This document shows, one piece after another, positions 14,138 to 64,000 of a stretch of 64,000 nt of DNA; position 1 is the first letter of the stretch; every line of letters starts with the position of its first letter. This stretch comes from Candidatus Krumholzibacteriia bacterium. GTDB taxonomy: Bacteria > Krumholzibacteriota > Krumholzibacteriia > LZORAL124-64-63. Below the pieces are notes generated by a model that saw only the letters and a list, made by a program, of their open reading frames with translations, was not told the DNA's origin and searched no databases. Location: NCBI GenBank assembly GCA_014859985.1, contig JACZKN010000092.1, positions 5,980-69,979 on the forward strand, given 5' to 3'. The position numbers were made by a program, and so were the translations under genes.

Positions 14138-14148
14138 TATGAAATCCT

Positions 14149-17202: not shown

Positions 17203-17213
17203 TGGGGGCGTCC

Positions 17214-17435: not shown

Positions 17436-17681
17436 TGCACAGTCGGAATGAGTGCAGGAGATAGTAGGCGTCGCTGGCAGTTGCTGTCAATTGTTGTTGG
17501 ATATCAGCCAGCAATGGCCACAGCAAGACGATTAACGCGTTTTACGTCACCGCATTAAGTCAGGAAGATGGAGATAGGGAAGCGCAGACAGAAGGTGATG
17601 GAGGGTCTCCTCTACTCCTCCGGCGCTGCCTCAATCATCTCGGTTGCGGCAGAACGCAGCCCAATCGACTTGGGACACTGC

Positions 17682-39094: not shown

Positions 39095-39095
39095 C

Positions 39096-40082: not shown

Positions 40083-40096
40083 TTGGAGATGACGCC

Positions 40097-43195: not shown

Positions 43196-43214
43196 GCCAT
43201 GAAGGAGAGCAGTC

Positions 43215-43553: not shown

Positions 43554-43583
43554 GACCGTCCGCGACGAGAAAGGGCCGCCACC

Positions 43584-44489
43584 ATGGGACACGGACATTC
43601 GCATCACCCGGACCCTGAACAGACCGGAGACCGTCGACTGCTTGCCGCCATCGTTGTCAACGTCCTGCTGACCGGCGCTCAGGTGGTCGGCGGGGTCATC
43701 TCGGGCAGCCTGTCCCTGGTGGCGGACGCCTTGCACAACCTGAACGACGCCGCGTCTCTTGGTATCGCCCTGATTGCGCGTCGAATTGCGCGTCGGCCGG
43801 CAGACAAGGTTCGCACCTTCGGCTACCGGAAAGCCGAGGTGATCGGTGCCCTGATCAACACGACGACGCTGATCATTGTCGGCCTTTACCTCGTCTATGA
43901 AGCGGTCGCCCGCTTCCTGCAGCCCGAGCCCATCGACGGGTGGATCGTTGTCATCGTCGCGAGCTTCGCTCTTGTCGTGGATCTCGCCACTGCCCTGATG
44001 ACCTTCTCGATGGCCAAAGAGAACATCAACATCAAGGCCGCCTTCGTCCACAACGTCGCGGACGCCCTCGGATCGCTCGTCGTCATCTGCGTCGGCATCG
44101 TGGTCCTGGCGTTTCAATGGTACGTCGCCGATCTCATCGCGACCCTCCTCCTGGCCGGCTACATCCTGTTTCAGGGATATCGGCTGATGGCGGAGTCGGT
44201 CCGCATCCTGATGGACAGCGTCCCGGCCGACCTGGATCGCGATGGCATCGCAGCCCGGATGGCGGCCGTTCCCGGGGTCCACGACGTGCATCATGTCCAC
44301 ATCTGGCAGATCGATGAGCACCACCGCGCGCTCGAGGCCCACATCGTTGCCCAGGCAGGTCCCGAGGATGCCGAGGCGATCAAGCGAGCGCTGAAGGAAC
44401 TGCTTCGCCAGGAATTCGCGATCGCTCACACCACTCTCGAGTTTGAGTCGCGTGGGGTATGCGACAACGAAAGTGGACCATGCGCCTGA
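43584..44489 (+). CDS. czcD: cation diffusion facilitator (CzcD-like)
   Basis: N-terminal His-rich MGHGHSHHPD, six TM, CDF signature SLVADALHNLNDA. Confidence 0.75.
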   Translation: MGHGHSHHPDPEQTGDRRLLAAIVVNVLLTGAQVVGGVISGSLSLVADALHNLNDAASLGIALIARRIARRPADKVRTFGYRKAEVIGALINTTTLIIVGLYLVYEAVARFLQPEPIDGWIVVIVASFALVVDLATALMTFSMAKENINIKAAFVHNVADALGSLVVICVGIVVLAFQWYVADLIATLLLAGYILFQGYRLMAESVRILMDSVPADLDRDGIAARMAAVPGVHDVHHVHIWQIDEHHRALEAHIVAQAGPEDAEAIKRALKELLRQEFAIAHTTLEFESRGVCDNESGPCA

Positions 44490-47370: not shown

Positions 47371-47373
47371 GCG

Positions 47374-47937
47374 GTGGCCAGGGGAGCAAAGAAGGAGCTG
47401 ATCTCGCAGCGCGAGTACGCCCGCAGGCGCGGCTTGACCCACGTCGCGGTTCAGCGTGCCGTGAAGGCAGGCCGGATCTCGACCGTGAATGGGAAGATCG
47501 ACCCTGCGCTCGCCGACCAGCAGTGGCAGGAGAACACCGACCAGAGCAAGCCCCGCAATCGGATCACCGGTAACCCCAAGCAGACCAAGGCACCAGGTGA
47601 ACCATCTGAACCCATGGACATGGGCGGAGCCGATGAAATCGTCGGAGGCTCGTCGACGGCCACCGGATATGCCAAGGCCCGCGCCGCTCGCGAGCTCTAC
47701 CAGGCGCAGCTGGCGAAGCTCGAGTTGGACCGCAAGCGCGGCACCCTCGTGCGCGCCGACGAGGTGCGTCTCGGCGCATTCAACATGGCCCGCAAGGCCC
47801 GCGATCAGTTGATCGCCTTGCCCGAGCGCCTGGCCTCCGTCCTAGCTGCTACAGAGGAGCCCGCCGAGGTCCAGCGCATCCTCGAGGAAGAGATCGAGCG
47901 GATCTGCCAGGAGATCGCGGATGCAGAACGGCCGTGA
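47374..47937 (+). CDS. terminase small subunit
   Basis: HTH ISQREYARRRGLTHVAVQRAVKAGRI; precedes TerL. Confidence 0.55.
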   Translation: MARGAKKELISQREYARRRGLTHVAVQRAVKAGRISTVNGKIDPALADQQWQENTDQSKPRNRITGNPKQTKAPGEPSEPMDMGGADEIVGGSSTATGYAKARAARELYQAQLAKLELDRKRGTLVRADEVRLGAFNMARKARDQLIALPERLASVLAATEEPAEVQRILEEEIERICQEIADAERP

Positions 47938-49771
47938 CACGTATGAGACCGCCTACCGGGCGGGCTGGCGGCCGGAGCCGCGGCTGACGGTCAGCGAGTG
48001 GGCCGACGAGCACCGCGTGCTGGGCAACCGCTCGGGCCATGCCGCGGTGCACTGGCACACCGACACGACGCCGTACCTGCGCGAGATCATGGACGCTCTG
48101 GGCCCACGGTCTCCGGCCCGCCGGGTCGTGTTCATGAAGGGTTCGCAGCTTGGCGGCACCGAGGCGGGCAACAACTGGCTCGGGTACGTGATGCACCACG
48201 CGCCCGGGCCGATCCTCGTCTTGCGCCCCACCGTGGACGAGGCCCGGCGGTTCAGCCGGCAGCGCCTCGATCCCATGATCGCCACCACGCCCGTGCTCCA
48301 CGAGCTGGTCCGCGAGGCGCGGTCCCGCGACGGCGGCAACAGCCTCCTGATCAAGGAGTTCCCCGGCGGGGTCCTATTCCTGACCGGCTCGAACTCCGCG
48401 ACCGGCGTCAAGTCGATGCCGATCCGCTGGCTCTTCTGCGACGAGATCGACGAGTACCCAGGCGATGTCGACGGGCAGGGCGACCCGATCTCGCTAGCTG
48501 AGAAGCGCACCACCGGCCCCCTCTACTCGCGCCGCAAGGTGTTCCTGGTCTCGACGCCCACGGTCAAGGGCATCTCACGGATCGAGCGGGAGTTCCTCGC
48601 GTCGGACCAGCGGCGGTACTTCGTCCCCTGCCCCGAGTGCGGCCACTTCGACTGGATGCGGTGGGAGAACATCCGATGGCGTGACGACGACCCCAAGACC
48701 GCCGCCATGGCCTGCGTCCACTGCGGCGTCCTGATCGAGGAGCGCTTCAAGCCCCAGATGCTCAATCAGGGGCAATGGCGCCCCACCGCGAAGGGCAACG
48801 GCGAGACGATCGGGTTCCATCTGTCCAGCCTCTACTCGCCGCTGGGCTGGCTGCCATGGTCGGCCACCGTCGCTGAATTCGTGGAGTCCAAAGAGAACCC
48901 ACTCCGGCTGAAGAACTGGGTCAACAGCGTGTTGGGCGAGACCTGGGAAGAACGCGGCGAGACCGTCGACCCGGACAGTCTGCTGGCCCGGGCGGAGCGG
49001 TACGAGGCCGAGGTGTCCACTGGCGTGGGTGTGCTCGTGGCCGCGGTCGACGTGCAGGGTGACCGCCTCGAGTGCGCCGTGAAGGGGTACGGCGCCGCTG
49101 AGGAGTCCTGGCTTGTCGCCTTCTCCCAGTTCCACGGCGATCCGGGGCGCGACCAGGTCTGGCTCGACCTCGACCGCTTCTTGCGAACCGAGTTTGCCCA
49201 CGAGAGCGGCCAGAAGGTCCCGATCTCCTGCGTCGCCGTCGACAGCGGCGGTCATCACTCCGAGCAGGTCTACCGGTTCTGCCGCGCCCGGATCGACCGG
49301 CGAGTGTTCGCCGTTCGTGGTGGCTCCGAACGGGGCAAGCCGCTCGTGGGCCGCCCGTCCGATCACAACCGCTACCGGGCGAAGCTGTTCACCCTCTGCG
49401 TCGACACCGGCAAAGAGATCGTCTACTCGCGGCTGCGCATCGGGTCACCCGGACCCGGCTACTGCCACCTGCCCGAGTGGATCGACGAGGAGTACATCGC
49501 CCAGCTTACCGCCGAGAAGGCCATCCGCAAATGGATCAAGAACCGCGGCACGGTGCGCGAGTGGGTCAAGACCCGCGATCGCAACGAGGCCCTCGACCTC
49601 GAGGTCTACTGCCTGGCCGCCCTCCACATCCTGGGACCCGCCTTCGTGAAGTCCTTGCCCGAGCGCGCAGCGGCCCTGGCCAATCTGCGCGAGGTGCCTG
49701 TCGCGGCCGAGCCGGAGCCGAGCATGCCTTTGCGGCGCCCCCGGGGGTGGATCGATGGCTGGCGAGGGTAG
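47921..49771 (+). CDS. terminase large subunit, lambda gpA family
   Basis: 616 aa; GpA-type N-terminal ATPase (LTVSEWADEHRVL...TPYLREIMDAL) and C-terminal nuclease. Confidence 0.7.
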   Translation: MQNGRDTYETAYRAGWRPEPRLTVSEWADEHRVLGNRSGHAAVHWHTDTTPYLREIMDALGPRSPARRVVFMKGSQLGGTEAGNNWLGYVMHHAPGPILVLRPTVDEARRFSRQRLDPMIATTPVLHELVREARSRDGGNSLLIKEFPGGVLFLTGSNSATGVKSMPIRWLFCDEIDEYPGDVDGQGDPISLAEKRTTGPLYSRRKVFLVSTPTVKGISRIEREFLASDQRRYFVPCPECGHFDWMRWENIRWRDDDPKTAAMACVHCGVLIEERFKPQMLNQGQWRPTAKGNGETIGFHLSSLYSPLGWLPWSATVAEFVESKENPLRLKNWVNSVLGETWEERGETVDPDSLLARAERYEAEVSTGVGVLVAAVDVQGDRLECAVKGYGAAEESWLVAFSQFHGDPGRDQVWLDLDRFLRTEFAHESGQKVPISCVAVDSGGHHSEQVYRFCRARIDRRVFAVRGGSERGKPLVGRPSDHNRYRAKLFTLCVDTGKEIVYSRLRIGSPGPGYCHLPEWIDEEYIAQLTAEKAIRKWIKNRGTVREWVKTRDRNEALDLEVYCLAALHILGPAFVKSLPERAAALANLREVPVAAEPEPSMPLRRPRGWIDGWRG

Positions 49772-52023: not shown

Positions 52024-52195
52024 GGGGGGAAGATGGGGAAGGAAGGGAAGGAAGTAGAAGAGAGTGTGTCTTATAACGAGTTACATACCGAGCATTCTTC
52101 ACCTTCGTTCACCTTCCTTCACCCCGAAATCGACCTTCGAAGAGGCTTCCTTCACCTTCGTTCACCTTTCTTCACTGCTTCCTTCACCCTTCCCC
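52024..52195. repeat. iteron-like repeat field: (GGAAG)n tract then >=7 copies of TTCAC(C/T) in two 27-bp units TTCACCTTCGTTCACCTT(C/T)CTTCAC; candidate phage replication origin
   Basis: Read directly; located at the 3' end/downstream of the primase gene. Confidence 0.55.
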
Positions 52196-54379
52196 CTTCG
52201 CCGAGCCTGACGATGATCCAGCCAGACGGTAGATCCGACCTGTCCGGCCGGAAGTCGCCTGTACCTGGACGACGATGTCGCCTCGCTGCTCGAGCGTGGT
52301 CACCAGACCGGAGAAGCTCTTGGCGTCGGTCTTCATCCGCTTCAGCAACACGCCATGGGGCAGCGCCCGGTCCGGAGCGGCACGCAGCTTCTGAAGGAAC
52401 CGCAGGCACTCGGCATGGAACGGATTGTCCGCGACATGGGATTGGGCCATGAACAACATCCGCTTGGTCTGGTGCAGGATGAGGCGGCTGGCCCAGGACG
52501 CGGCCGTCTTGCCGATCTCGGGTCGCTCGTGGTTCTCGCTCACGGCGTAGATCAGCGCGAGTTTGCGGGCGTGCTCGCTGACTCTGCCCCAGACGGTCGT
52601 CCCTACGCTGTCGTCGGCCGCCTCCGCCCTGGCATACTCAGCCTCGGCTTCGAGCCTGGTCTCGACCAGGACGTCCGTCGCCTCGTCGGTGTGCGGAACG
52701 ACACGCGGCACGGGATGCCAGTTCTCGAGGTTTCCGGTGCCGGCCCTGAAGTCCGCCCACCACTGCGCCGTCTCGAGCACGCGCTCCGGCATCGGAAGCA
52801 GCCGCGGTTCCCGCCCGGTCGAGCGGCTGCCGCACTCCAGAACGATCATCCGGGCGAAGAATCCGTTCGTCAGCATCCGCTCCGACAGCGCCTCGTAGTA
52901 GTGGTTCGGTATCGCCGTGCCGAAGACCACCAAGCAGGGCTGGTCGATGGCCCCAGGCGCGTCTCGGCCTGCCTTGCGGCGCATCGGGAAGATCGAGTTG
53001 GCCGACGAGTACATGGTCAGGAGCGTTTCCATGATGCTCTCGTACCGGGCGTCGCGCGCCTTGTTGATCGACTGGAGCATGCCGTCGATCTCGTCGGTCT
53101 GGAAAAGCATGGCCGGCTCGGTGAACAGCGCATCCTGCAGGCCCTCGCCCGAGGCGAACCGCCCGCCGATCTGACCGGACATGCCGAGCGTGTGCAGGAT
53201 CTCGGCGTTGATCTTGCGCGGGCGGTCCTTACCCGCAGACGAGTGGGCAAGGCCGAGGATGTAGACGTTCGTCCTGTTGTCGCCGGGGTCACGCACCTTG
53301 CGCCCTGCGAGCGTGGCCAGCAGCGCCAGCGCGCCGGCGAAGGCCATGGAGCTGTTCGGATACGGAGCCGTCTCCAGGCAGTAGTCCATGACCTCGGAGA
53401 CGAAGCCGGGGATACGGAGGAGTTCGACCGGCAGCGGGCCGGGATCTGGCATCTCGGGCACGCTATCCTCGGGCTCGGTCGCCCCGGGATTGTCCTGCCG
53501 CCAGTGGTCTTCCACCACGGCGACGGCGACCTGGTCGGGCTCGTACCGGGCGATGCTGGTCGCGATCCGCTGGACCTCCCGGTCCTTCAGCGGCGGGCTG
53601 CAGCGGTCGAGATTGGCCCGGACCAGGGCGGCCAGGATCTCCTCCTGGCTCATCCCCACCCGGCGCATGGCCCCGCCCAGTCGCGCCAGCGTGGCGTTCC
53701 GGTGCCCGGCTGGTATATCGTTGCCACCGGCGGCCGCCGGTGCGCACGGGGGCGCCGCGGGCGCGCCCTGGGCCGCAACCGGCCGTTCCTCAGCGGGCCC
53801 GCCTGGCTCCTTGGCAAAGAGGTCCGCGCCACCTTCGACCCGGGATCCAAGCCACGCGGGGGCTTTGGGCTGATCGGCCAGTCCCACCTCGAGCGCCCGG
53901 ACCCACTGATACGGCTTGCCGCCCACCACCGAGGGCGGCAGGACGATGTAGCCGCCGTTGGCCCTGGTGTCGACTTTCGGAGCGAGCCGACCGGCGGTGC
54001 TGCTCCAGCTCTTGCCCGCCGGCTGCCGGAAGATGTAGTGCCGGCCGCCGCGAGGCGTCATGGAGAGCGGGCAGTCCCCGAGGCCTTCCAGGTCGTCGCC
54101 GGGCCACGGATTGTCCGCCCCGTCGACGTCCACGACCAAGAGGCCGGCGGTCGGCATGCCGATGTTCGCATCCGGTCGAGCCGTCCACCAGGCCTCGATC
54201 TGGCCGGCGTCCGTGGTGGCGTCAAGGAACCCGTGCGGCGTCGCGGGGGCCTTCCCGCCCGGCACGCACGGAAAGACCGGGTACCCGAGTTCCGCATACC
54301 TCAACGCTGCCTGCAGTAATGTCGTCCCGGTCTCGGTCATAGACACCCGATCGCGGTCAGAAGGGTAGGTCATCGTCAT
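52184..54379 (-). CDS. bifunctional DNA primase/polymerase (PrimPol domain) with large C-terminal region
   Basis: LGYPVFPCVPGGKAPATPHGFLDATTD...LVVDVD prim-pol N-terminal signature. Confidence 0.65.
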   Translation of the reverse strand: MTMTYPSDRDRVSMTETGTTLLQAALRYAELGYPVFPCVPGGKAPATPHGFLDATTDAGQIEAWWTARPDANIGMPTAGLLVVDVDGADNPWPGDDLEGLGDCPLSMTPRGGRHYIFRQPAGKSWSSTAGRLAPKVDTRANGGYIVLPPSVVGGKPYQWVRALEVGLADQPKAPAWLGSRVEGGADLFAKEPGGPAEERPVAAQGAPAAPPCAPAAAGGNDIPAGHRNATLARLGGAMRRVGMSQEEILAALVRANLDRCSPPLKDREVQRIATSIARYEPDQVAVAVVEDHWRQDNPGATEPEDSVPEMPDPGPLPVELLRIPGFVSEVMDYCLETAPYPNSSMAFAGALALLATLAGRKVRDPGDNRTNVYILGLAHSSAGKDRPRKINAEILHTLGMSGQIGGRFASGEGLQDALFTEPAMLFQTDEIDGMLQSINKARDARYESIMETLLTMYSSANSIFPMRRKAGRDAPGAIDQPCLVVFGTAIPNHYYEALSERMLTNGFFARMIVLECGSRSTGREPRLLPMPERVLETAQWWADFRAGTGNLENWHPVPRVVPHTDEATDVLVETRLEAEAEYARAEAADDSVGTTVWGRVSEHARKLALIYAVSENHERPEIGKTAASWASRLILHQTKRMLFMAQSHVADNPFHAECLRFLQKLRAAPDRALPHGVLLKRMKTDAKSFSGLVTTLEQRGDIVVQVQATSGRTGRIYRLAGSSSGSAKGEG

Positions 54380-56078
54380 CGTGCGGGTTGTATGCCCGCA
54401 CGCCGCCCTCGATCATCGCGCCCACCGGCTCGAGGTCATCGTCCATCCCGGGCTCCCGCCATGGCGGACGATCGCCCAGCTCGTAGCCCACGATCTGCGG
54501 GAACTGCTCCCCGACCACCGTTCGCACGGTGATGGTGCCGGTCTCGCAGAGGGCTCCGTCCTGGGCCAGGGCCGCGGCCTCGGCCGCCGTCGGCGGCACC
54601 GGAGCGTTCGACCGCTTCCGCCACCACGACTCGGCCTTGTGGCGAGCCCAGCCGCCGTGCTCGAAGCAGATCCATTCGCTGTAGTACTGGTGGAACCCAA
54701 CCTCGTACTCGACCCGCAGCGTCTTGGGCGCATCCTCCGGCGCGCCCTTCTTCGTGTGGACGCTGAAGAACACCTCGCGGACCTCGTGGACCGACGTCGT
54801 GACCTCACCCGACAGGATGCCCTCGGTGGACGCTGTGGCGTCGTGCTGTTGCCGTTCCGGCGGTGGGAACTCGTAGCCGCAGTCAGGGCACACCGTATAG
54901 CCGGTGGCGATCAAGCTCCTGCACACGGGGCACTGCTTGGCCGGCGCCTCGCCGCCCATGCGGTGGTGGACCTCCCGGACCCGGATGGCGTCGACCGGCC
55001 CGTGCCGCAGCACGTTGCCGCCGAAGTCCAGGACCAGACAGTTCTCCTTCCCCTCGCACAGACGGAAGCCCCGGCCGACCATCTGGTAGTAGAGGCCCGG
55101 GGACAGCGTCGGCCGCATCATGGCCACGCAGTCGATGTTCGGGGCGTCGAACCCCGTGGTGAGAACGTTGACGTTGACCAGGTACTTGATCCGGCCCTCT
55201 TTGAACTGAGCCAGGACCCGGTCGCGCTCCTCGCTCGCCGTCTCGCCGAACACCGTGGCCACGGGCTCGCTCGTCATCCGGCCCAGCACCGCGGCGACGT
55301 GCTCCGCGTGCCGGATACCGGAGGTGAACACGAGCACCGACCGGCGCACCTGCGCCTGCTCGACGATCTCCCGACAGGCCGACTCCACGAGCTCGTCGGT
55401 GTCCATCAGATCCTCGGCCTCACTGGCGATGAACTCGCCCGCGCGCACGTGCAGACTCGAGGTGTCCAGCGGCTGCGCCGCGCCCTTGGTCACCAGGGGG
55501 CAGAGGTAGCCCTGGACGATCAGCTCCTTCACACCGATCTCGTAGCAGACCTCGTTCAGGACGTTGCCCGGCTCACAGATCATCCCGCTCTTCATCCGGA
55601 ACGGCGTCGCGGTCAGGCCGATCACCCGCAAGTGCGGGTTCACCTTCCTGGCGTCGTCGAGGAACGTCCGGTACATCCCATCCCCATCGGGCGGGATCAT
55701 GTGGGCCTCGTCGATGATCACCAGGTCGAACGCGTCGAGCTCGCAGGCCCGCTTGTACACCGACTGGATGCCCGCGATGATAATCGGGTGCTCGGTGTCG
55801 CGGCTCTTCAGGCCGGCCGAGTAGATCCCCGTCTTCATCCACATCTCGGGCGCCACGACCTGGATCTTCTCCAGCGCCTGCTCGAGTAACTCCTTCACGT
55901 GAGCCAGGATCAAGACTCGGCCGTTCCACCGGCCCACCGCGTCCCGGCAGACCGTGGCCATGACCGGCGTCTTGCCCCCGCCGGTGGGGATCACCACGCA
56001 GGGATTGTCTTCCCGGTCCCGCAGATGCTGATAGATCGCGTCCACCGCCTCCTGCTGATAGGGCCTCAGTTCAAGCAT
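54357..56078 (-). CDS. SF2 DEAD/DEAH-box DNA helicase with zinc ribbon
   Basis: VIPTGGGKT, DLVIIDEAH, GLTATP, QMVGRGFR; CPVCR..CPDCG. Confidence 0.65.
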   Translation of the reverse strand: MLELRPYQQEAVDAIYQHLRDREDNPCVVIPTGGGKTPVMATVCRDAVGRWNGRVLILAHVKELLEQALEKIQVVAPEMWMKTGIYSAGLKSRDTEHPIIIAGIQSVYKRACELDAFDLVIIDEAHMIPPDGDGMYRTFLDDARKVNPHLRVIGLTATPFRMKSGMICEPGNVLNEVCYEIGVKELIVQGYLCPLVTKGAAQPLDTSSLHVRAGEFIASEAEDLMDTDELVESACREIVEQAQVRRSVLVFTSGIRHAEHVAAVLGRMTSEPVATVFGETASEERDRVLAQFKEGRIKYLVNVNVLTTGFDAPNIDCVAMMRPTLSPGLYYQMVGRGFRLCEGKENCLVLDFGGNVLRHGPVDAIRVREVHHRMGGEAPAKQCPVCRSLIATGYTVCPDCGYEFPPPERQQHDATASTEGILSGEVTTSVHEVREVFFSVHTKKGAPEDAPKTLRVEYEVGFHQYYSEWICFEHGGWARHKAESWWRKRSNAPVPPTAAEAAALAQDGALCETGTITVRTVVGEQFPQIVGYELGDRPPWREPGMDDDLEPVGAMIEGGVRAYNPHDDDDLPF

Positions 56079-56424
56079 CGACGATCTCCTCCAGGCGCAC
56101 GAGGGTGCGGCCGCCGCGGACCGACCCGCGCATCTCGATGTTCAGTTTCTTGATCTGGCTGTCGTCCGTGTACAGGCCGCCGTGCTGCAGAGCGTCTAGG
56201 AGCGCCTTCTGCACGTTGTCGATGTCCCTGCGCTGCCGGTCCGGCGGATAGACCTCGATCTCCAGATGCAGGGGCCCGTCCAGGCTCCCGATCCCGAGGC
56301 CGGCGAGGATGGCGCAGACCCGCTCGCGGAACCTGCGCCCCTCGCGGCTGATGAGCGTCCGGGGCCCGACCCGCCGGTAGTAGTGGTTCACCGACGGAGG
56401 GAACGGGAGCTCGACCTCGATCAT
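56071..56424 (-). CDS. rusA: RusA-family Holliday junction resolvase
   Basis: MIEVELPFPPSVNHYY start; ATGA coupling to upstream gene. Confidence 0.6.
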   Translation of the reverse strand: MIEVELPFPPSVNHYYRRVGPRTLISREGRRFRERVCAILAGLGIGSLDGPLHLEIEVYPPDRQRRDIDNVQKALLDALQHGGLYTDDSQIKKLNIEMRGSVRGGRTLVRLEEIVDA

Positions 56425-56876
56425 CGCCGGGCCCAGGGCGGCGTGCTCGAGGTCTCCTGCTGAGGCACACCCGCGGCGGCGTCTTTGCGCGCGTAGCCGC
56501 GGATCTCGTTGACCACGTCGCCCGTGTCGTCGCGCTTCTTGCACTTGACCGTGATCTGCAGGGGCAGGTTGTGCAGTTCGACCGAGTCCTTGGGCTGCAG
56601 CACGCCGACCGCCCGGCAGATCGCCGACAGTTCGCCCTGGGCGATCTGGACCGCCTGGCGGTTCGGGTTGTCCAGGTTGAGCCGCGCCCAGAGCATCCGG
56701 TTCTTGAACTCGCCGTCAATCACCTGGAACGTCAGCTCGAGGAAGTGGCCCGTGCCGCTCTTGGTCGGCTTCATCTGCGATTCGGTGATGACGGTGAGGT
56801 ACTTGCCCGCGGGCAGCGGCTCGAAATCGGTCGCGGGGTCGACGGTCGCGGCATCGAAGCCGTTGAGGTTCGCCAT
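56421..56876 (-). CDS. DUF669-family phage protein
   Basis: MANLNGFDAATVDPATDFEPLPAGKYLTVITESQMKPTKSG..FLELTFQVIDGEFKNR; start taken from internal ATG at 56876. Confidence 0.5.
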   Translation of the reverse strand: MANLNGFDAATVDPATDFEPLPAGKYLTVITESQMKPTKSGTGHFLELTFQVIDGEFKNRMLWARLNLDNPNRQAVQIAQGELSAICRAVGVLQPKDSVELHNLPLQITVKCKKRDDTGDVVNEIRGYARKDAAAGVPQQETSSTPPWARR

Positions 56877-56878
56877 GG

Positions 56879-57679
56879 TTACTTCGCTCCTTTGGTCTTG
56901 CCGCCCTGGGGCGCGCTCACAGGTTCGGGGTGGATGTGCTGGGCGTAGACGTTCCAGTCCAGCGGCATCTCTTCGGGAAGGGCGAGGCGGTTTTTGGCCA
57001 CGTGGGCGGGGCGCTCGACCGTGCGCAGCACGCGCTCGCCGGTGCCGATGCCCTGGTTGCGCTTGCGGTCGAAGCCCTCGTCGGTCTGCTTGGTGAAGAC
57101 CTTGAACGTGGCGAACATGACCTCGTCGCACCACTCCTGCAGAACCTGGGAAGCCAGGCGGTGCAGGCGCGGCACGTAGCGGTCGTAGGACTCGGTCTCG
57201 GGGTTCTCGAAGCGTTCGATGCGGGCGTGGGCGATCAGGATCGTCGTCATGCCCTTCTCGCTGCGCAGCGCCGACAGGCCCTCGATGAACTCGCGCCACT
57301 GCGTCAGGGCGAACACGTAGCCCTTGGCGTAGCCGATGTCCTCGATGCTCTCGACGTTGCGCCGACGGCACACGTCGGCCCAGATGAGCCGCTCCAACCA
57401 GTCCAGCGAGTCGATCACGACAGTTCGATAGGAGTGCTCGTCGGTGTAGAGCTCCGACAGGGCCTGCATGGCCTGATCGAACGTCGTGGTGACGGGGAAC
57501 TTGGCGCAGTCGATCTCGCCAAGGCCGTCCTCGGTCTGGATGAACACCGGGTTGGGCGCGTAGCTGGCGAAGGTCGACTTCCCAATGCCGTGGGTGCCGT
57601 AGAGCATCACCCGCCTGGGCGCCGGACTTCGTCCGCTGATGACTTGCTGCAAGAGTTTCACGGTAGTCTCTCCTTCCAT
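56879..57679 (-). CDS. Sak4-like RecA-family ATPase (AAA_24)
   Basis: Walker A MLYGTHGIGKST, VVIDSLDWLERL, ILIAHA. Confidence 0.6.
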   Translation of the reverse strand: MEGETTVKLLQQVISGRSPAPRRVMLYGTHGIGKSTFASYAPNPVFIQTEDGLGEIDCAKFPVTTTFDQAMQALSELYTDEHSYRTVVIDSLDWLERLIWADVCRRRNVESIEDIGYAKGYVFALTQWREFIEGLSALRSEKGMTTILIAHARIERFENPETESYDRYVPRLHRLASQVLQEWCDEVMFATFKVFTKQTDEGFDRKRNQGIGTGERVLRTVERPAHVAKNRLALPEEMPLDWNVYAQHIHPEPVSAPQGGKTKGAK

Positions 57680-57769
57680 TGCAGGTTGGTGGGGAAGCGG
57701 GCGGACCTAGGGAGTCCCGACGCGCTCGGGCGACAGCGCGTCACGCCATTCCGCCCGATTCCGCCTGTG

Positions 57770-58618
57770 TCAGATCAGATCGAAAGTCCGGATTTCCTCG
57801 TAGCCGCTGAGCCACTCGTCCTTCTCGCGGCACGCGATCAGGCGCGCGATGCTCTCCTCGTTCTCCTTCTCGGCGAGGCCGAGGACCTCCTCGCTCATGC
57901 GCCAGACGCCGGTGCGCAGCGGCTCGCGCTTCTCGACGGCGATCATGTAGACGGGGAGCCGCTCGCCGGTGAGAGCGGCGGCCAGAGACCGGTAGAAGGC
58001 GAGCTGGTAGACGTAGCCGTAGCTGCGCGCGTCCATCTGGAGCCAGTCGAGGTTGTCGCAGGTCTTCAGGTCGACGATGCCGCGCTCGGGGTTCAGCCAG
58101 TCCAGACGCGACTGGCACGGCACGCCGCAGTACTCGGCGCGGATTACGCCCTCGGCGACGCCGTCGGCCAGCAACGCCGCGGCATGTTGGTGGGCTCGCA
58201 CCGACGCGTTCAGGCTCTCGATCAGGGCCGCCTGATCGTCGTCGAGCACGGGCTTGCCCTTCGCCTCCGCCCAATCCTGGAAGGCCTTTGTGCGGCTACC
58301 GAACGACTGGCCGGTCTTGGGGTTGATCGGGCCGCCAAACGCGTAGGCCTGCTCGTAGGCCTCGCGGCCCTCGAGGATCAGGACGTGGGCGGCGCGGCCG
58401 AGGACGTACGCCGGGCGGTCCTCGTCCAGGACCAGTCCGAGCTCCTTCTTGTGGAAGAGCAGCGCATTGCGCCGGAACTCGGCTAGCAGATGGCTGGAGA
58501 GGTACTTGCCGGCCTGGGCGTGGTACACCCCTGCCGGCTCGCGGATCAGGAAGCCCAGGTCTTCGACGAGTGCGTCCCCGTCCTTCCGGCGCTTACGAAA
58601 CACATCCGGGATGCTCAT
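57770..58618 (-). CDS. PD-(D/E)xK family nuclease (RecB/Cas4-like exonuclease)
   Basis: RGIVDLKTCDN...YGYVYQLAFY core. Confidence 0.5.
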   Translation of the reverse strand: MSIPDVFRKRRKDGDALVEDLGFLIREPAGVYHAQAGKYLSSHLLAEFRRNALLFHKKELGLVLDEDRPAYVLGRAAHVLILEGREAYEQAYAFGGPINPKTGQSFGSRTKAFQDWAEAKGKPVLDDDQAALIESLNASVRAHQHAAALLADGVAEGVIRAEYCGVPCQSRLDWLNPERGIVDLKTCDNLDWLQMDARSYGYVYQLAFYRSLAAALTGERLPVYMIAVEKREPLRTGVWRMSEEVLGLAEKENEESIARLIACREKDEWLSGYEEIRTFDLI

Positions 58619-60041: not shown

Positions 60042-60257
60042 CTACGGAGTCGTGCTCTTTCTACCTTGATCGTGTCGCTCGTTTAATGTGCGGCAGTTCC
60101 GACACACGCACGCTACCGGGAGACCAACGAGATACTCGTGGCCGCGAGCGAAGCGGATGTGCAACCGATCACCCCGCGATACAGCGAGGAGTCTTCCGCA
60201 GTTCGCGCATCGCCAATCGTCTGAGCCGGCGTCGCCCGCTCGGCATTTCGCGGCCAT
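60042..60257 (-). CDS. small zinc-finger protein (Com-like)
   Basis: CANCGRLLA...HIRF...CVCRNCRTLN; start at internal ATG 60257. Confidence 0.3.
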   Translation of the reverse strand: MAAKCRAGDAGSDDWRCANCGRLLAVSRGDRLHIRFARGHEYLVGLPVACVCRNCRTLNERHDQGRKSTTP

Positions 60258-60502
60258 CACTGCTGATCCCCCGCGCTCTGGGTCTCGTTGTCGGCCCTCC
60301 TGATGTTGTCTGGGCATTGAGTGGCATACCTGACGAAGCGCCCACAGCGCCGGCACGTCACTCGGATGTGGCGAGTGTTGTTGGCAAACGTCTGCCAAGT
60401 CATGAGGAGGCTCTGACTGCAGCACTGGGGACAGGTGATGGGCTTTGACTCAGTTGACGGCGTCGCGCTGCGCGGCCGCTGAAGGGGCCTGAAGTTGGGC
60501 AT
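60257..60502 (-). CDS. small Cys4 zinc-ribbon protein
   Basis: CPQCCS...CRRCGRFVRYA. Confidence 0.35.
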   Translation of the reverse strand: MPNFRPLQRPRSATPSTESKPITCPQCCSQSLLMTWQTFANNTRHIRVTCRRCGRFVRYATQCPDNIRRADNETQSAGDQQ

Positions 60503-60652
60503 CGGGTGCTCCTTGCTCGTGAGTATCCTGAGGAGCAGCCCGTGGCCCTATGTCCGCGATGGAGACCCAATGGAAACGCCCCCGGTTCTCGGGGGCGCGT
60601 CGACTGGCATCTGCCGGTACGCTGCGCCCTCTACAGAGCAGGCGCGACGCAC

Positions 60653-60682
60653 CGCGTAGCAGGTGCTACTTTTCGCGTAGCA
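60653..60682. promoter_or_regulatory. operator-like site: CGCGTAGCA direct repeat (21-bp spacing) with inverted repeat TAGCAGGTGCTA
   Basis: Read directly in the intergenic region between the QueC-like gene and the Zn-finger genes; TTGACT hexamer just downstream. Confidence 0.4.
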
Positions 60683-60695
60683 ATTGTTGACTACC

Positions 60696-62729
60696 TCAAA
60701 TTATCCACTCCACTCGCTCGCGCGGCTCATAGCACGGCTTCCAGCCGCAGTTTAGCGTCGGACGCGTCAGGTGTTCTGCGAGTCGCTTGTCGTACTTCCC
60801 GATCTCGGTGCGGGTGCGGCGAATGGCTGCCAGCACCGCCTTCCGGACCCGATCTCGGTCATCGGATTGTTTTCGTAGTCGCCCATGGAGCCCCTGGTCC
60901 CGCTTGATGTGCTCCATCAGGTCTTCCATCTCGACTCGAATTTGCTCCTCGGCATCCGAATCCTGCCGCTCCGCGGCGTCCTCCGACTGGTCTCTGAGCT
61001 GCTCGTAGCGAGCACGATAGGCCGCCATCGCCTGTTCGTCCGAGCCCTCGCCCGCGTCCCCGAGTAGGTATTCCTGCGATCTCCGTGCGACTCGCGCAGC
61101 GAGGTCCTCAACCGATATGCCTGTCCCTTGATTCTCTAGAAGCACATGTATGTAGGCGGCACCTTTACTTGGCAGCAGGATGAACTCCTGCCCACCTGCG
61201 TACCGCACCTCCCATACCTGGCCTTTCCTTCGGAAGGTGAATTCGGGGCACTCCTTGTCGCTCGCAGCTGCCCCCCCAGCACCTGCACCGGCCTCGCTTC
61301 CAGCCGCTCCCGAATCGCACACTAAGCGAAGCAAGCAAGACGCGGGCAGGGTTCGTTCTCGAATCTCCTTCGCATGCTTCGCGATCGCGCTGTCCACAAC
61401 GCTTGTGACCTGCTGTGCATGCTTCCTGTACAACTCATAGATCTTCACAGCGGTCGCGTCGGCCGAACCGTCGATGTGTCGTAACACGCGACTGATCTCC
61501 CCGAAGCGCGAGAAGAAGTCCAGTGGAACCATCCGCCCAACATCGTTCGCAGTTTCCACGTAGGAGCCCAGAAGTGTGCGCGTCTCGTCTTCGTCTCGAC
61601 CATCGACCAACAGCTTGACCTTGTATCCTTCCTCCGGATCTAGTGCTTCGGCACCTGCCGCGAGCACAGCAAAGCGACGGTCGATGCACTGGGAACACGC
61701 TCCGCAGTGTGGATGCAGGTTTGTCATCTCCCAGGTGTGAGTACAACTCGTCGAGAACCGGATCATATCTCCACAGCCAGCGGAGACTATCCCTCCGACG
61801 ACTTCCGCCTTGGTCTTCCATAGAAACGGATTCTCGACATCGAACCTTCGATCAGCCACCAGCGAGAGGATCTCTGCGTATCCGTTCATCACCTGCGGAT
61901 GCGTGGTTCTTGTCGCTCTTGCCCCTACAATTTGGGCCGATGGCGGGAAGTTGAAACTGATGACCCCGTTCTCATAGAATCGAATCCGAGCAAGCCCCAG
62001 CATCTGCGCAACGGTAGCGCCGAGGGCCATGTACAAGAACGACCGACTTCGCTGCGTGTACTCCCTGCCAAGCACCTTGCTCTTGTTGATGGTCACAGGG
62101 ACGAACATCGGGTCCAATGCGGACCGCTCAGTTAGCTCCCTGGTGAGCTTCCTGTATCGCCGAACGAGTTTCTTGCTTGGCTGGTGGGTGATAAGAGCGA
62201 TTCGACGTTTGTCTACCACGCCCTCCTGAACCGCACCGCCCAGTGAATCGAGTCCTCCTGAGAAGAGTACGACCTCCTCGACCCGATCGGGTCCGTCGTT
62301 CTGCCCGGTGAAGAGGTACTCCTGGACCGGCGGACCATCGGTCAGTTTCATGAATTCGAACTCGTATTCGTCTTCGGAGAGGAAACCCAGCGTGGTTAGA
62401 AGTGCCGTCCTGACCTTCTTACTGGACCACAGGTCCGGTTCTCGAACCGGAATCCTGAAGAACAGCCGCCGCCGCCAATCTGCACCAAGGTTGTTCACGC
62501 CGTCACCGCCCCGAGTGACAGCCTGATCTGCGCAGTACACGTAGGTGGCGATCTCCAAGAGATCCACGAAGGCAGATGGAACATTGTCCATCATGGCCTT
62601 GCTGATCGCGCCAATCTCGAGCTTTACGTTCGCATGTCGACCCCAGAGGCGGAGGCGCAGCGGTTTCCCAGCAACCGGGAGTGCCTTATCGGAGACGCTA
62701 CCGCAGATGATGGCTCTCTCATTTGCCAT
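60696..62729 (-). CDS. multidomain QueC-like PP-loop ATPase (N-terminal unknown domain, QueC-like core, Ala/Gly linker, C-terminal wHTH-like plus acidic coiled-coil)
   Basis: VLFSGGLDS PP-loop; SCTHTW...HPHCGACSQCIDRR aligns with the QueC zinc site TCYNG...GCGECPAC; start could be 62756 or 62729 (MANER). Confidence 0.6.
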   Translation of the reverse strand: MANERAIICGSVSDKALPVAGKPLRLRLWGRHANVKLEIGAISKAMMDNVPSAFVDLLEIATYVYCADQAVTRGGDGVNNLGADWRRRLFFRIPVREPDLWSSKKVRTALLTTLGFLSEDEYEFEFMKLTDGPPVQEYLFTGQNDGPDRVEEVVLFSGGLDSLGGAVQEGVVDKRRIALITHQPSKKLVRRYRKLTRELTERSALDPMFVPVTINKSKVLGREYTQRSRSFLYMALGATVAQMLGLARIRFYENGVISFNFPPSAQIVGARATRTTHPQVMNGYAEILSLVADRRFDVENPFLWKTKAEVVGGIVSAGCGDMIRFSTSCTHTWEMTNLHPHCGACSQCIDRRFAVLAAGAEALDPEEGYKVKLLVDGRDEDETRTLLGSYVETANDVGRMVPLDFFSRFGEISRVLRHIDGSADATAVKIYELYRKHAQQVTSVVDSAIAKHAKEIRERTLPASCLLRLVCDSGAAGSEAGAGAGGAAASDKECPEFTFRRKGQVWEVRYAGGQEFILLPSKGAAYIHVLLENQGTGISVEDLAARVARRSQEYLLGDAGEGSDEQAMAAYRARYEQLRDQSEDAAERQDSDAEEQIRVEMEDLMEHIKRDQGLHGRLRKQSDDRDRVRKAVLAAIRRTRTEIGKYDKRLAEHLTRPTLNCGWKPCYEPRERVEWII

Positions 62730-63504
62730 CGGGCCGCGCCCCCTCTTTGAGTTCATCGGAGAGCTTCTTCATCGCGACGTGCGCGAACCCAGATGCATCC
62801 TTCCGCGAGATCCCTTTCTTTTCCCAGTTGGTCTTCGAGAACCAGCCGCCGGAAAAGTCTTCGACGATCTTAGATGCTTCCTGGCAATGGCGTCCGAGCG
62901 CTTTCGAGAATCCGGCTTGCTGAGCCAGGGTTGCGAAGCGCCTGTCTTCGCCAACATGGAGGGTCATTGCTCGACTGAGGAAGTAGTCGAGGTACCTCTC
63001 AGTCAGGCGTGCGAAGAATTGGCGGGCGAAGACGCTGAACTGGCGGTTGGTCCCCAACTGCCGAAGCTCACGCTGAACATCGGCTGCGGTCGTTCCGAAG
63101 AGGCTCTGAGTCCTCTCACCGAGTACCCGGGTCAGCGTCTCGGTCGCAGACATCTCTGCCATTTCACCGAGGTCCGTACGACCACCGTTCTTAGAGAGAC
63201 GACGGTCCACCGCATCGGCGAAAGCACCGACCAGCTCCATTAAAGTCGGGGCATCGCGGACGTCGATCCCCGCCGCACGGAGTGATCCGGCGTAGTCATC
63301 TGATCGCGCCGCGAGTGGAAGCTGGGTCAGGAGCCAGATCGTCTCAACCAGGCCTTTATCGTCACTGGCGAGTTTCAGACCTCGCTCGGCCGCCGAGATT
63401 GTGGCGTTGGCGACCTGCGCGGTGCCTGCGCCTCCTTCGATAAGCCCAACAACCTGCTGCCACCGTCTCGTGCGCGGAAGCTCACCGAGGCGCAAGTGCC
63501 CCAT
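62719..63504 (-). CDS. hypothetical partner protein beginning Met-Gly, coupled to the QueC-like gene
   Basis: GAGG SD 7 nt before ATG at 63504; overlaps downstream gene by 11-38 nt. Confidence 0.5.
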   Translation of the reverse strand: MGHLRLGELPRTRRWQQVVGLIEGGAGTAQVANATISAAERGLKLASDDKGLVETIWLLTQLPLAARSDDYAGSLRAAGIDVRDAPTLMELVGAFADAVDRRLSKNGGRTDLGEMAEMSATETLTRVLGERTQSLFGTTAADVQRELRQLGTNRQFSVFARQFFARLTERYLDYFLSRAMTLHVGEDRRFATLAQQAGFSKALGRHCQEASKIVEDFSGGWFSKTNWEKKGISRKDASGFAHVAMKKLSDELKEGARPDGK

Positions 63505-63771
63505 GCTCTTACCTCACATCGTCAGAACGGAGTTGTGGCTTCGCCAATTATCGGCTGGGACCGGCTCCACCTGAAGCGGAAATGCCCTCGCCCGGTCCCG
63601 CTCAATTCCACGGAGATGTCCCCACGGGCCGTACTCGCCCCCCCTTTCTCTTTCGAGGAGGCGCGTGTCGGAGTCCGCGTGATTGCCTTGATGCAGGGGG
63701 CGTTCAGAGGTAGGACTGAATGTGGCCGTGTCTCCCCAACTCACATGATCACAGGAGGTTGCGTTCACCAC

Positions 63772-64000
63772 ATGCCTGCAAAACGAGAATCCCTAACCCG
63801 GGTCGCCTTCTACACCCGGATCTCCACAGACGAGGACCACCAGAAGTACTCGCTCGGTGCCCAATCCGAGCGCCTCGAGGCCTTTTGCAAGGCCCAGTGG
63901 GGCGACGACTGGCGGCTCCACAAGGTCTACCGCGACACCGAGAGCGGAACCCACATGAACCGCCCCGGCCTCGAGGAGATGCTCTTTGATGCCGAGTCGG
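63772..64000 (+). CDS. serine recombinase (probable prophage integrase), 5' part only
   Basis: RVAFYTRISTDEDHQ...RPGLEEML catalytic-domain signature; truncated by window end. Confidence 0.65.
   Translation, partial: MPAKRESLTRVAFYTRISTDEDHQKYSLGAQSERLEAFCKAQWGDDWRLHKVYRDTESGTHMNRPGLEEMLFDAES

What the first reader, a model, noticed from the sequence alone, without database searches (positions are those of the whole stretch)
60696..63504. Candidate novel two-gene system: Met-Gly partner protein plus giant three-part QueC-like enzyme next to the integrase
The 686-aa protein has a PP-loop (VLFSGGLDS) and a Cys4 zinc site that aligns with QueC (SCTHTW...HPHCGACSQC vs TCYNG...GCGECPAC). Around that core it adds an unknown ~185-aa N-terminal domain, an Ala/Gly linker, and a C-terminal wHTH-like plus acidic coiled-coil region. 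It is translationally coupled to an upstream 261-aa protein with a good SD. That protein starts Met-Gly, so Met removal would expose an N-terminal Gly. The pairing is reminiscent of QueC-like enzymes that attach 7-deazaguanine derivatives to partner-protein N-termini (QatB/QatC; Cap9 in type IV CBASS). There is no QatA ATPase, no QatD TatD nuclease, no CD-NTase and no TGT/DpdA here, and the domain fusions are not the described ones. This points to an uncharacterised protein-conjugation or nucleotide-modification module carried by the prophage, with a defence, anti-defence or regulatory role.
Basis: partly seen in the sequence, partly recalled or inferred. Interest (0 to 1): 0.8.

Follow-up and report, generated by a model that had tools for sequence, protein, structure and literature searches.

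The report
Prophage QatBC-like pair with DNA-binding domain
Two overlapping prophage genes encode a divergent, stand-alone version of the QatB/QatC anti-phage pair, in which the enzyme is fused to a transcription-factor-type DNA-binding domain; this undescribed variant occurs in hundreds of species and may link protein modification to control of phage early genes.

The parts
62719..63504 (-). Partner/substrate protein, 261 aa, all-helical, with a flexible N-terminal tail MGHLRLGELPRTRRW. It is a functional analogue of QatB.
   Evidence: ORF. SD and ATG-GGG start. 710 homologues at 67-96% identity, lengths 260-264 aa. 1,557 50%-cluster representatives. G2 is the only invariant column. AF2 model pLDDT 77: 12 helices, residues 1-13 and 19-27 disordered. 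No match to QatB HMMs; hhalign prob 0.4-3.6%.
61365..62729 (-). QatC-family catalytic part of the 677-aa enzyme (residues 1 to about 455): QatC N-extension, QueC-like PP-loop Rossmann core, Zn-Cys4 site and QatC C-extension.
   Evidence: PADLOC QatC 1.7e-46. NCBIfam QatC 1.7e-51, 175 bits against a cut-off of 280. PDB QatC 9vlk_A 1e-25 and 9zee_B 3e-22. tblastn with Delftia QatC residues 61-453 matches window 62567-61377. Start at M10 supported by homologues.
62244..62261 (-). PP-loop SGGLDS (S157-S162 in 677-aa numbering), the ATP pyrophosphate-binding motif.
   Evidence: Read directly from the sequence. Invariant S157, G159, D161, S162. Aligned to the SGGLDS/SGGMDS of solved QatC chains.
61686..61745 (-). 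Zn-binding Cys4 site C329...C342-G-x-C345-x-x-C348-x-D-R-R.
   Evidence: All four Cys invariant. Aligned to HCGRCVPCLIRR of QatC. Matches the QatC variant motif CGxCxxRR given in PMC13329287.
61245..61364 (-). Conserved LPxSCLLRLV junction followed by a poorly conserved Ala/Gly-rich linker (residues about 456-495).
   Evidence: Per-position conservation profile. C-terminal variants of the clade diverge after this junction motif.
60696..61244 (-). C-terminal add-on (residues about 496-677, plus the stop codon): an OmpR/PhoB/SARP-type winged-helix DNA-binding domain with an acidic coiled-coil hairpin inserted between helices 2 and 3.
60590..60689 (-). Tandem repeat element directly 3' of the enzyme's stop codon. 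It has two TGCTACGCG copies 21 nt apart (60674-60682 and 60653-60661), the first forming the palindrome GCTACGCGAAAAGTAGC, followed by a stem-loop region.
   Evidence: unique in the window. 91% identical in close relatives. Present in 80 of 135 related loci directly downstream. Tandem heptamers in 60 of 69 loci with adequate flanks, against 5 hits in 231 kb of control DNA. Pairing 85% against 33-46% for slid controls.
60567..60607 (-). GC-rich hairpin CGCGCCCCCG-AGAAC-CGGGGGCG followed by TTTCC: a terminator-like structure between the pair and the next gene (81-aa ORF 60257-60502).
   Evidence: Inverted repeat I1. The stem is kept while the loop changes in L170.
63505..63771 (.). Divergent intergenic region between the partner gene and the serine recombinase gene; presumed promoters for both.
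   Evidence: No small LexA-like wHTH gene lies here, unlike 82 of 143 related loci. No sigma-70 consensus promoter was found.
63772..64000 (+). N-terminus of a serine recombinase (integrase), cut off by the window end.
   Evidence: Pfam Resolvase 1.2e-11. A 480-525-aa divergent gene occupies the same position in L170 and L172.

Best explanation
The two genes form a stand-alone, DNA-binding variant of the QatB-QatC core.

Shown:
- The 677-aa protein is a complete QatC-family PP-loop enzyme with every catalytic and zinc motif intact.
- It is fused through an Ala/Gly linker to an OmpR/SARP-type winged-helix DNA-binding domain that carries an acidic coiled-coil insertion.
- The 261-aa protein is encoded just upstream, overlaps the enzyme gene by 11 nt, is all-helical and has a flexible N-terminal tail.
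- Its Gly2 is the only invariant residue across the family.
- The pair travels as a unit in the integrase-proximal region of prophages and other integrative elements, and QatA or QatD never lies within 6-10 kb of it.

Inferred by analogy with QatB-QatC and Cap9-CdnD:
- After removal of Met1, the Gly2 amine enters the QatC active site.
- It is then acylated in an ATP-dependent reaction, giving a 7-deazaguanine-type adduct.

Inferred from comparative genomics:
- The fused DNA-binding domain targets a tandem GCTACGC...GTAGC repeat.
- That repeat nearly always accompanies the pair. It sits at the boundary between the lysogeny genes and the element's early/replication operon.
- The module would therefore couple N-terminal protein modification to gating of early-gene transcription, that is, prophage immunity or superinfection exclusion. 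It would not work through a KAP ATPase and a TatD nuclease.
For: - QatC membership of the core.
- Conserved D56 (equivalent to D63), SGGLDS, RxRxF, TRTTHP and Cys4: compared with motifs in PMC13279940 and PMC13329287.
- Partner adjacency in 151 of 154 loci, usually with the ATGnnnnTGA overlap.
- Gly2 invariance and the MGH tail.
- Disordered tail in the model.
- QatB Gly2 is essential and an NDG-modified GTSKAY peptide was detected in the canonical system: PMC13279940 and PMC13639016.
- Fold of the DNA-binding domain. Trans_reg_C sits at the same position in a sister variant.
- Integrase association in 41 of 43 loci and absence of QatA/B/D in all 43.
- The element is present in 60 of 69 loci with adequate flanks, against 5 hits in 231 kb of control DNA.
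- In 'group C' prophages the element is not next to the pair. It sits about 4 kb away on the other strand, in the gap before the first early gene.
- The genes after the element differ between lineages, so the pair plus the element is the constant.
- Sister phages without the pair have other palindromes there.
- Clade members with other C-terminal DNA-binding domains have different repeats right after their stop codons.
- Between the integrase and the early genes the window holds no protein-coding gene except this pair.
Against: - No biochemistry was done. The chemistry of even canonical QatC is unsettled: CDG did not stimulate it in vitro (PMC13376578) and modification was seen only at low level.
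- The partner is not detectably a QatB homologue and its tail is much shorter (about 13-27 aa against 30-90).
- The link between the DNA-binding domain and the repeat is correlative. Groups with rather different recognition-helix sequences share the same element.
- At least 6 of 54 viral contigs carry the exact 20-mer without the pair within 5-12 kb.
- The element also has RNA-type covariation and a U-tract in some lineages. It could be a terminator or antiterminator RNA unrelated to the protein.
- The pair's GC3 (0.68) is lower than that of neighbouring phage genes (0.87-0.92), and sister phages carry other cargo in the same slot. Both fit accessory defence cargo.
Confidence: 0.45

Rival explanations
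1. Plain accessory anti-phage defence cargo. This would be a minimal QatBC-type system, abortive or exclusion type, carried in a prophage hotspot. The fused winged helix would only autoregulate the operon or sense foreign DNA. The GCTAC element would be the cassette's terminator or an unrelated early-operon leader.
For: - QatBC alone protects against lambda-vir (PMC13279940).
- The slot between the integrase module and the early genes is variable: 12 of 13 sister phages carry other cargo, including a CapP-like M78 peptidase.
- The pair occurs with both serine and tyrosine integrases and next to CRISPR-Cas in L020.
- Its GC3 is lower than that of the flanking genes.
- A clade member carries a metallophosphoesterase in place of the wHTH, as an effector swap would.
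- The P3/P4 stem with a U-tract looks like a terminator.
Against: - In group C the element stays with the early operon, not with the pair. It is therefore not simply the cassette's terminator.
- Presence of the element tracks presence of the pair across phyla and integrase types.
- No recognisable effector (nuclease, pore, NADase) accompanies the pair.
Confidence: 0.3
2. An anti-defence or host-takeover enzyme. The QatC-like ligase would modify a host or competitor protein, or sequester a 7-deazaguanine precursor, for the phage's benefit. The partner would be a chaperone or adaptor rather than the substrate.
For: The PHROG match falls in the category 'moron, auxiliary metabolic gene and host takeover'. 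The pair lies at the head of the early region and reads in the same direction.
Against: The invariant Gly2 and the conserved tail of the partner point to the partner itself as substrate. The DNA-binding fusion is not explained. The pair sits on the lysogeny side of a terminator-like element.
Confidence: 0.08
3. An incomplete canonical QatABCD system whose QatA and QatD are encoded elsewhere or have been lost (a decayed system).
For: QatC profile matches. Only about 34% of QatC-cluster genes have qatA or qatD neighbours (PMC13329287).
Against: None of 43 loci with at least 6 kb on both sides has QatA, QatB or QatD. Strong purifying selection, fixed length and a distinct partner family of about 1,557 clusters argue for an independent functional lineage. 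No QatA/B/D was found in the 64-kb window.
Confidence: 0.04
4. An ordinary QueC for preQ0/queuosine synthesis or 7-deazaguanine DNA modification by the phage.
For: Public records annotate homologues as 7-cyano-7-deazaguanine synthase. Pfam QueC matches at 9.7e-6 over 70 residues.
Against: TIGR00364 scores 19.9 bits against a cut-off of 150. The best match by far is QatC. The substrate-site TRTTHP is of the QatC type (PMC13279940). Canonical QatC does not complement a queC deletion (PMC13329287). No DpdA/TGT/QueD/QueE/FolE family appeared among the scanned window ORFs or in annotated neighbourhoods.
Confidence: 0.02

Closest known systems
QatB-QatC core of the QatABCD anti-phage system (Gao et al. 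2020; structures 9y01/9y02, 9vlk, 9zee; PMC13279940, PMC13376578, PMC13639016)
   Same: - QatC-family enzyme with N-extension, PP-loop core, TRTTHP motif, Zn-Cys4 and C-extension.
- The partner gene lies immediately upstream and overlaps the enzyme gene.
- The partner is about 260 aa, all-helical, with a flexible N-terminal tail starting Met-Gly.
- A two-gene unit is sufficient in the canonical system.
   Different: - Only 28-32% identity to canonical QatC; 175 bits, below the NCBIfam equivalog cut-off of 280.
- An extra C-terminal module of about 220 aa (linker plus winged-helix DNA-binding domain with a coiled coil).
- The partner shows no detectable homology to QatB, and its tail motif is MGHxRLGxLPRTRKW rather than MGTS...P16/W18, and much shorter.
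- No QatA or QatD ever lies nearby.
- Fixed position in the integrase-proximal lysogeny region, with a cognate-looking DNA repeat.
Cap9-CdnD of type IV CBASS (deazaguanylation; bioRxiv 10.1101/2025.04.06.647259)
   Same: A QueC-family ligase acts on the Gly2 amine of a partner protein after Met removal. The N-terminal glycine is essential.
   Different: Cap9 is minimal (about 185 aa) and keeps the canonical QueC substrate motifs. Its partner is a CD-NTase. Cap10 (TGT-like) and an effector are present. None of these is found here.
OmpR/PhoB/SARP-family winged-helix transcription regulators (BaeR, ToxR, CadC, AfsR)
   Different: - There is no receiver or BTAD domain; the DNA-binding domain is attached to an enzyme.
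- A coiled-coil hairpin of about 70 aa replaces the helix 2-helix 3 'transactivation' loop.
- Pfam Trans_reg_C does not detect the window's own domain.
Lambda immunity region cI-rexA-rexB (analogy only, from my own knowledge)
   Same: Genes expressed from the lysogeny side, next to operators and a terminator that separate them from the early lytic operon. Repression and exclusion functions are combined in one region.
   Different: No sequence or fold relationship. Here the DNA-binding domain and the enzyme are one polypeptide.

Membership tests
QatABCD defence system | QatC: QueC-like PP-loop protein with QatC-specific N- and C-extensions and motifs (D63, SGGxDS, RxRxxxF/Y, HP, P(x)4TK, CGxCxxRR) | tested here: met
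   PADLOC QatC 1.7e-46. NCBIfam NF041925 1.7e-51, but 175 bits is below the 280 cut-off. PDB QatC 1e-25. The motifs are present and invariant. It is therefore a divergent member, not an equivalog.
QatABCD defence system | QatB protein (PF28083 / NCBIfam QatB) encoded upstream of QatC | tested here: inconclusive
QatABCD defence system | QatA KAP-family NTPase in the operon | tested here: not met
   tblastn of two QatA proteins against the window gives nothing below E 0.1. Found in 0 of 43 related loci with at least 6 kb on both sides.
QatABCD defence system | QatD TatD-family nuclease in the operon | tested here: not met
   tblastn gives nothing. Found in 0 of 43 loci. No TatD Pfam family in annotated neighbourhoods.
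QatBC minimal core (enzyme-substrate pair) | Partner N-terminus Met-Gly with a conserved flexible tail; Gly2 essential | tested here: met
   118 of 120 and 120 of 123 start MG or VG, and G2 is the only invariant column. The tail is disordered in the model. The motif differs: MGH..., not MGTS. Essentiality cannot be tested here.
QatBC minimal core (enzyme-substrate pair) | Stable 1:1 complex with the partner's N-terminus in the QatC active site; N-terminal modification; anti-phage activity | not testable with these tools
   Needs co-expression, pull-down, MS and plaque assays.
Canonical QueC (TIGR00364 / PF06508 cluster 1) | Full-length match above the curated cut-off | tested here: not met
   TIGR00364 scores 19.9 bits against a cut-off of 150.3, covering only the Zn-site region. 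Pfam QueC scores 25.7 bits over residues 293-363 only. I did not check the cluster-1 motifs YxQxHxxE, VPxRN and YPDC individually.
Type IV CBASS (Cap9/Cap10/CD-NTase) | Adjacent CD-NTase with an MGGS N-terminus and a TGT-like Cap10 | tested here: not met
   No CD-NTase or TGT Pfam family in six annotated neighbourhoods or among 30 scanned window ORFs.
7-deazaguanine DNA modification (Dpd) / phage preQ0 pathway | DpdA/TGT and FolE/QueD/QueE genes nearby | tested here: not met
   None in annotated neighbourhoods or among scanned window ORFs. Small window ORFs were not all scanned.
OmpR/PhoB-type winged-helix DNA-binding domain (Trans_reg_C) | N-terminal beta-sheet, three helices and a C-terminal beta-hairpin wing; Pfam PF00486 | tested here: inconclusive

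The most novel reading that the evidence does not exclude
The QatC-winged-helix protein and its Met-Gly-His partner are the master lysis-lysogeny (immunity) switch of a cosmopolitan family of temperate phages and integrative elements. The enzyme-repressor would sit on tandem GCTACGC operators at the head of the early operon. An ATP-dependent nucleobase-type conjugation on the partner's N-terminal glycine would be the signal that sets or releases repression. A prophage decision would then be governed by QueC-family protein modification rather than by RecA-type cleavage.
Probability: 0.2. Interest if true: 0.85.

Novelty: new variant of a known kind. Interest (0 to 1): 0.62.

Why it matters
QatBC is known to be the core of a widespread defence system, but what it senses and how a modified QatB stops phage are open questions (PMC13279940, PMC13376578). 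This clade is large and is not named by current tools:
- It falls below the NCBIfam cut-off.
- It has no QatA or QatD, which the four-gene system definition expects.
- It occurs in at least 571 species-level genomes across more than 8 phyla and in 177 IMG/VR contigs.

Here the same enzyme-substrate logic is hard-wired to a DNA-binding domain and to a defined, conserved DNA/RNA element. That gives experimental handles the canonical system lacks: a candidate binding site, a transcriptional read-out, and cultured hosts such as Caldimonas manganoxidans ATCC BAA-369, Desulfobulbus rhabdoformis DSM 8777, Comamonas phosphati and Mizugakiibacter sediminis.

If the regulatory reading is right, QueC-family protein modification extends from immunity signalling to control of mobile-element gene expression. 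If it is not, the finding still defines a new QatBC subtype with swappable C-terminal modules (winged helix, metallophosphoesterase, others).

Tried and rejected
- **Partner against QatB by sequence.** PADLOC, NCBIfam, Pfam and PDB sequence searches found nothing.
- **Partner against QatB by profile.** hhalign with two partner alignments reached prob 3.6% at best. Both runs aligned the same central region, GGRTDLGEMAQ against PPGGxVDExIARQ. I treat this as inconclusive.
- **Isolated phages.** tblastn of the enzyme against 50,697 phage records gave only two Listeria records at 28% identity over the core. The family is known only from prophages and metagenomes.
- **C-terminal domain.** The afdb50 fold library was unavailable. 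A profile search against PDB sequences gave only coiled-coil noise.
- **Promoters and terminators.** The sigma-70/terminator consensus scan of 59.8-64 kb was uninformative.
- **Rfam.** No family matched 59-64 kb.
- **Recognition helix against element.** I tested whether the GCTAC element tracks the recognition-helix sequence. It does not cleanly: groups B and C share a helix type and the element, but group A has a different helix with the same element.
- **Element as the pair's own terminator.** Rejected, because in group C the element lies about 4 kb away at the head of the early operon.
- **Exclusivity of the element.** Rejected: at least 6 viral contigs carry the exact 20-mer without the pair nearby.
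- **Window 254-aa ORF as the sigma-like early protein of other loci.** No similarity.
Full report
**1. The observation**

- The sequence shows the PP-loop FSGGLDS and the cysteine cluster SCTHTW...HCGACSQC. The partner starts ATG-GGG behind a GAGGT ribosome-binding site.
- All 120 close homologues of the enzyme begin M[APS]NERAI[LI]CG. The true start is therefore the ATG at 62729, giving 677 aa. That start overlaps the partner's stop in ATGGCAAATGA and sits behind an AGAGGGGG ribosome-binding site.
- A serine recombinase gene starts at 63772 on the plus strand, diverges from the pair and leaves the window.

**2. The enzyme**

- Residues 61-373 match the PADLOC QatC model (1.7e-46). Residues 61-381 match the NCBIfam QatC model (1.7e-51, 175 bits against a naming cut-off of 280).
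- Solved QatC chains 9vlk_A and 9zee_B match at 1e-25 and 3e-22.
- Delftia QatC residues 61-453 align with window residues about 55-451 at 28% identity.
- The 'unknown N-terminal domain' is thus the QatC-specific N-extension, and the QatC C-extension that binds QatB is present too (PMC13279940).
- All of the following are present and invariant in 43 homologues (motifs):
  - the catalytic Asp (D56, equivalent to D63);
  - SGGLDS;
  - RSRSF;
  - the QatC-type substrate motif TRTTHP;
  - P-x4-TK;
  - the CGxCxxCxDRR zinc site.
- Canonical QueC models match only weakly and locally.

**3. What is added**

- After a conserved LPxSCLLRLV junction and a variable Ala/Gly linker comes a conserved module of about 180 aa.
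- Modelled on its own it is confident (pLDDT 86, pTM 0.82). It has three strands, two helices, a long helical hairpin, a long helix and terminal strands.
- The hairpin therefore lies between helices 2 and 3 of a winged helix.
- Pfam does not detect this split domain.
- Other members of the same QatC clade carry different modules after the same junction:
  - a Pfam Trans_reg_C domain (L161, 9.6e-11);
  - other OmpR-like sequences;
  - an unknown domain of about 190 aa;
  - in P0346, a calcineurin-like phosphoesterase (2e-14).

**4. The partner**

- It has 710 homologues at 67-96% identity, almost all 260-264 aa.
- A profile of the family finds 1,557 cluster representatives in the 50%-identity library.
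- 118 of 120 close and 120 of 123 diverse full-length members start MG or VG, with consensus MGHxRLGxLPRTRKW. In a 61-sequence alignment at a mean column identity of 43%, Gly2 is the only invariant column.
- The model (pLDDT 77) is all-helical, with residues 1-13 and 19-27 disordered.
- It is not a detectable QatB homologue:
  - no HMM match;
  - hhalign prob 0.4% and 3.6% against a 57-sequence QatB alignment;
  - Foldseek gives QatB chains the highest probabilities in the list, but at E 0.1 and TM 0.3-0.38;
- I call it a QatB analogue. Remote homology remains open.

**5. Distribution and context**

- The 677-aa architecture is found at 52-95% identity and full coverage in at least 120 proteins. 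At least 571 species-level genomes encode a relative of the enzyme. The best 80 loci include Planctomycetota, Acidobacteriota, Desulfobacterota, Bacteroidales, several Pseudomonadota and Verrucomicrobiota MAGs, and several cultured strains. 177 IMG/VR contigs also encode a relative.
- No isolated phage genome has it.
- Counts over 164 loci:
  - the partner is directly upstream in 151 of 154;
  - a small LexA-like winged-helix gene precedes it in 82 of 143 (not in the window);
  - a large serine recombinase, with DUF2924 and a protein of about 144 aa, lies within 6.5 kb upstream in 77 of 94.
- Of 43 loci with at least 6 kb on both sides, 35 have the serine recombinase, 6 have only a tyrosine integrase and 2 have neither. 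None has QatA, QatB or QatD.
- The window has no QatA, QatB or QatD either.
- In the window and in most lineages the pair reads towards the element's early/replication genes: PDDEXK, AAA_24, ERCC4, helicase and primase.
- Sister phages whose sigma-like early protein is 77-81% identical lack the pair. They hold other genes in that slot: a wHTH-M78 peptidase with a CapP match, plus two unknown proteins, one with HTH_3.

**6. A conserved cis-element**

- Directly after the enzyme's stop codon the window has two TGCTACGCG copies 21 nt apart. The first forms the palindrome GCTACGCGAAAAGTAGC. A stem-loop and a GC-rich hairpin follow.
- Close relatives keep this region at 91% identity.
- A relaxed match is present directly downstream in 80 of 135 loci, in 39 distinct versions that include a 45%-GC genome.
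- On a 31-sequence alignment, a structure of one hairpin plus a two-part stem is 85% paired against 33-46% for slid controls. It has 10 pairs with double changes, and no shuffle reached its covariation score.
- An alternative second hairpin is 87% paired. In several lineages a U-run follows the long stem.
- In 'group C' prophages (Comamonadaceae, Lysobacteraceae and others) the pair diverges from the integrase operon. There the same tandem element is not next to the pair. It lies about 4 kb away on the other strand, in the 160-bp gap between the last integrase-operon gene and the first early gene.
- Tandem heptamers (at most 1 mismatch each, 19-23 nt apart) occur in 60 of 69 non-identical loci with adequate flanks, against 5 hits in 231 kb of control DNA. 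Several of the 9 'lacking' loci have visibly degenerate or more distant copies.
- The genes that follow the element differ between lineages. The constant is the pair plus the element.
- Clade members with other C-terminal DNA-binding domains have different repeats right after their stop codons, for example TTTCAGCG three times at 11-nt spacing behind the Trans_reg_C variant.
- Against a simple protein-site relationship:
  - the recognition helix differs between groups that share the element;
  - the exact 20-mer occurs in 54 viral contigs, of which at least 6 show no pair within 5-12 kb.

**7. Mechanism**

- Shown: an intact QatC-family enzyme fused to a DNA-binding fold; an obligately adjacent partner with an invariant Gly2 on a flexible tail; carriage next to integrases without QatA or QatD; and a co-occurring repeat element at the lysogeny/early boundary.
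- Inferred from the canonical systems: Met removal exposes Gly2, which enters the PP-loop active site and is acylated with ATP.
  - QatB Gly2 is essential, QatB's tail lies in the QatC active site, and an NDG-modified GTSKAY peptide has been seen.
  - The acyl donor of QatC is still disputed.
- Inferred from comparative genomics: the winged helix binds the tandem repeats. The module thereby gates transcription from the lysogeny side into the early operon, or marks and guards that region against homologous superinfecting DNA.
- I put this composite at 0.45. The enzymatic step alone I put at about 0.75.
- The main rival, plain defence cargo with an unrelated terminator or leader, is at 0.3.
- Metabolic QueC, a decayed QatABCD system and anti-defence are unlikely, for the reasons given in the rival entries.

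**8. Comparison and novelty**

- The core is a divergent member of the QatC family and works like QatBC or Cap9-CdnD.
- As a system it fails the QatABCD membership test on QatA and QatD, and is inconclusive on QatB.
- The QatC and QueC-family papers I could read do not describe the C-terminal DNA-binding fusion, the MGH partner family, the lysogeny-module context or the element. The QueC-family survey only notes that about two thirds of QatC-cluster genes lack qatA/qatD neighbours.
- It is a new variant of a known kind.

Noticed in passing
window 60590-60689 (-), and L001-L173 downstream of the QatC-long gene or about 4 kb upstream on the other strand: A conserved tandem GCTACGC...GTAGC repeat (21-nt period) plus a two-part stem-loop, with a U-run in some lineages. 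It has no Rfam family. It always lies at the boundary between lysogeny genes and the early operon. It could be a pair of operators, a terminator/antiterminator RNA, or both.
   Followed up: partly
L190, L217, L220, L223, L198, L231 (IMG/VR contigs): The exact 20-mer GCTACGCCGGATGTAGCGCC, mostly in the tandem form (single copy in L231), occurs in viral contigs that show no QatC-long or partner within 5-12 kb. By my rough ORF calls some copies seem to lie inside long ORFs. What these copies do is unexplained.
   Followed up: partly
P0346 (1079 aa, from the representative library); L143/L145/L087; L150/L152/L157/L158/L162; L161: The same QatC clade carries swappable C-terminal modules: a calcineurin-like phosphoesterase (in a protein that also appears fused to the partner and starts MHP, not MGH), an unknown domain of about 190 aa, and several other OmpR-like winged helices. 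Each comes with its own repeats after the stop codon.
   Followed up: partly
window 7950-17526 (-): A defence-like cluster far from the finding: a TIR-domain protein (PADLOC PDC-S66/bSEFIR, Pfam TIR_2 3e-28), a UvrD/GajB-like helicase, a 953-aa type III methyltransferase (1390 bits) and a 1125-aa ResIII/endonuclease protein. A DUF3800 protein and an MvdD-type ATP-grasp protein lie nearby (1978-7113).
   Followed up: partly
window 37760-44489 (+): An RND efflux operon (outer-membrane factor, HlyD-type adaptor, AcrB-type pump) and a CzcD-type cation efflux gene. They sit between phage tail genes (up to 37216) and a ParB-methylase/terminase block (45874-49771). This could be cargo inside the prophage or a junction between two elements.
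   Followed up: no
L176 2080-5296, L182 2236-5178 (sister phages without the pair): The slot that holds the QatBC-like pair elsewhere holds here a wHTH-M78 peptidase (CapP-like, 9e-22) followed by two overlapping genes of about 390 and 312-344 aa with no family match (one has a weak HTH_3). Different palindromes lie upstream of the early genes. This may be an alternative immunity or defence module.
   Followed up: partly
window 60696-63504 compared with 52184-58618: The pair has GC3 of 0.68-0.69 and about 58-60% GC, against GC3 of 0.87-0.92 in the adjacent replication genes. This suggests the pair was acquired separately from the rest of this prophage.
   Followed up: no
L173 11931-15039: In one relative (71% identical enzyme) the pair is followed not by replication genes but by contractile-injection/baseplate-type genes (T4_baseplate, PhageMin_Tail, CIS_tube). 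The partner ORF there is called as only 77 aa, so it may be disrupted.
   Followed up: no
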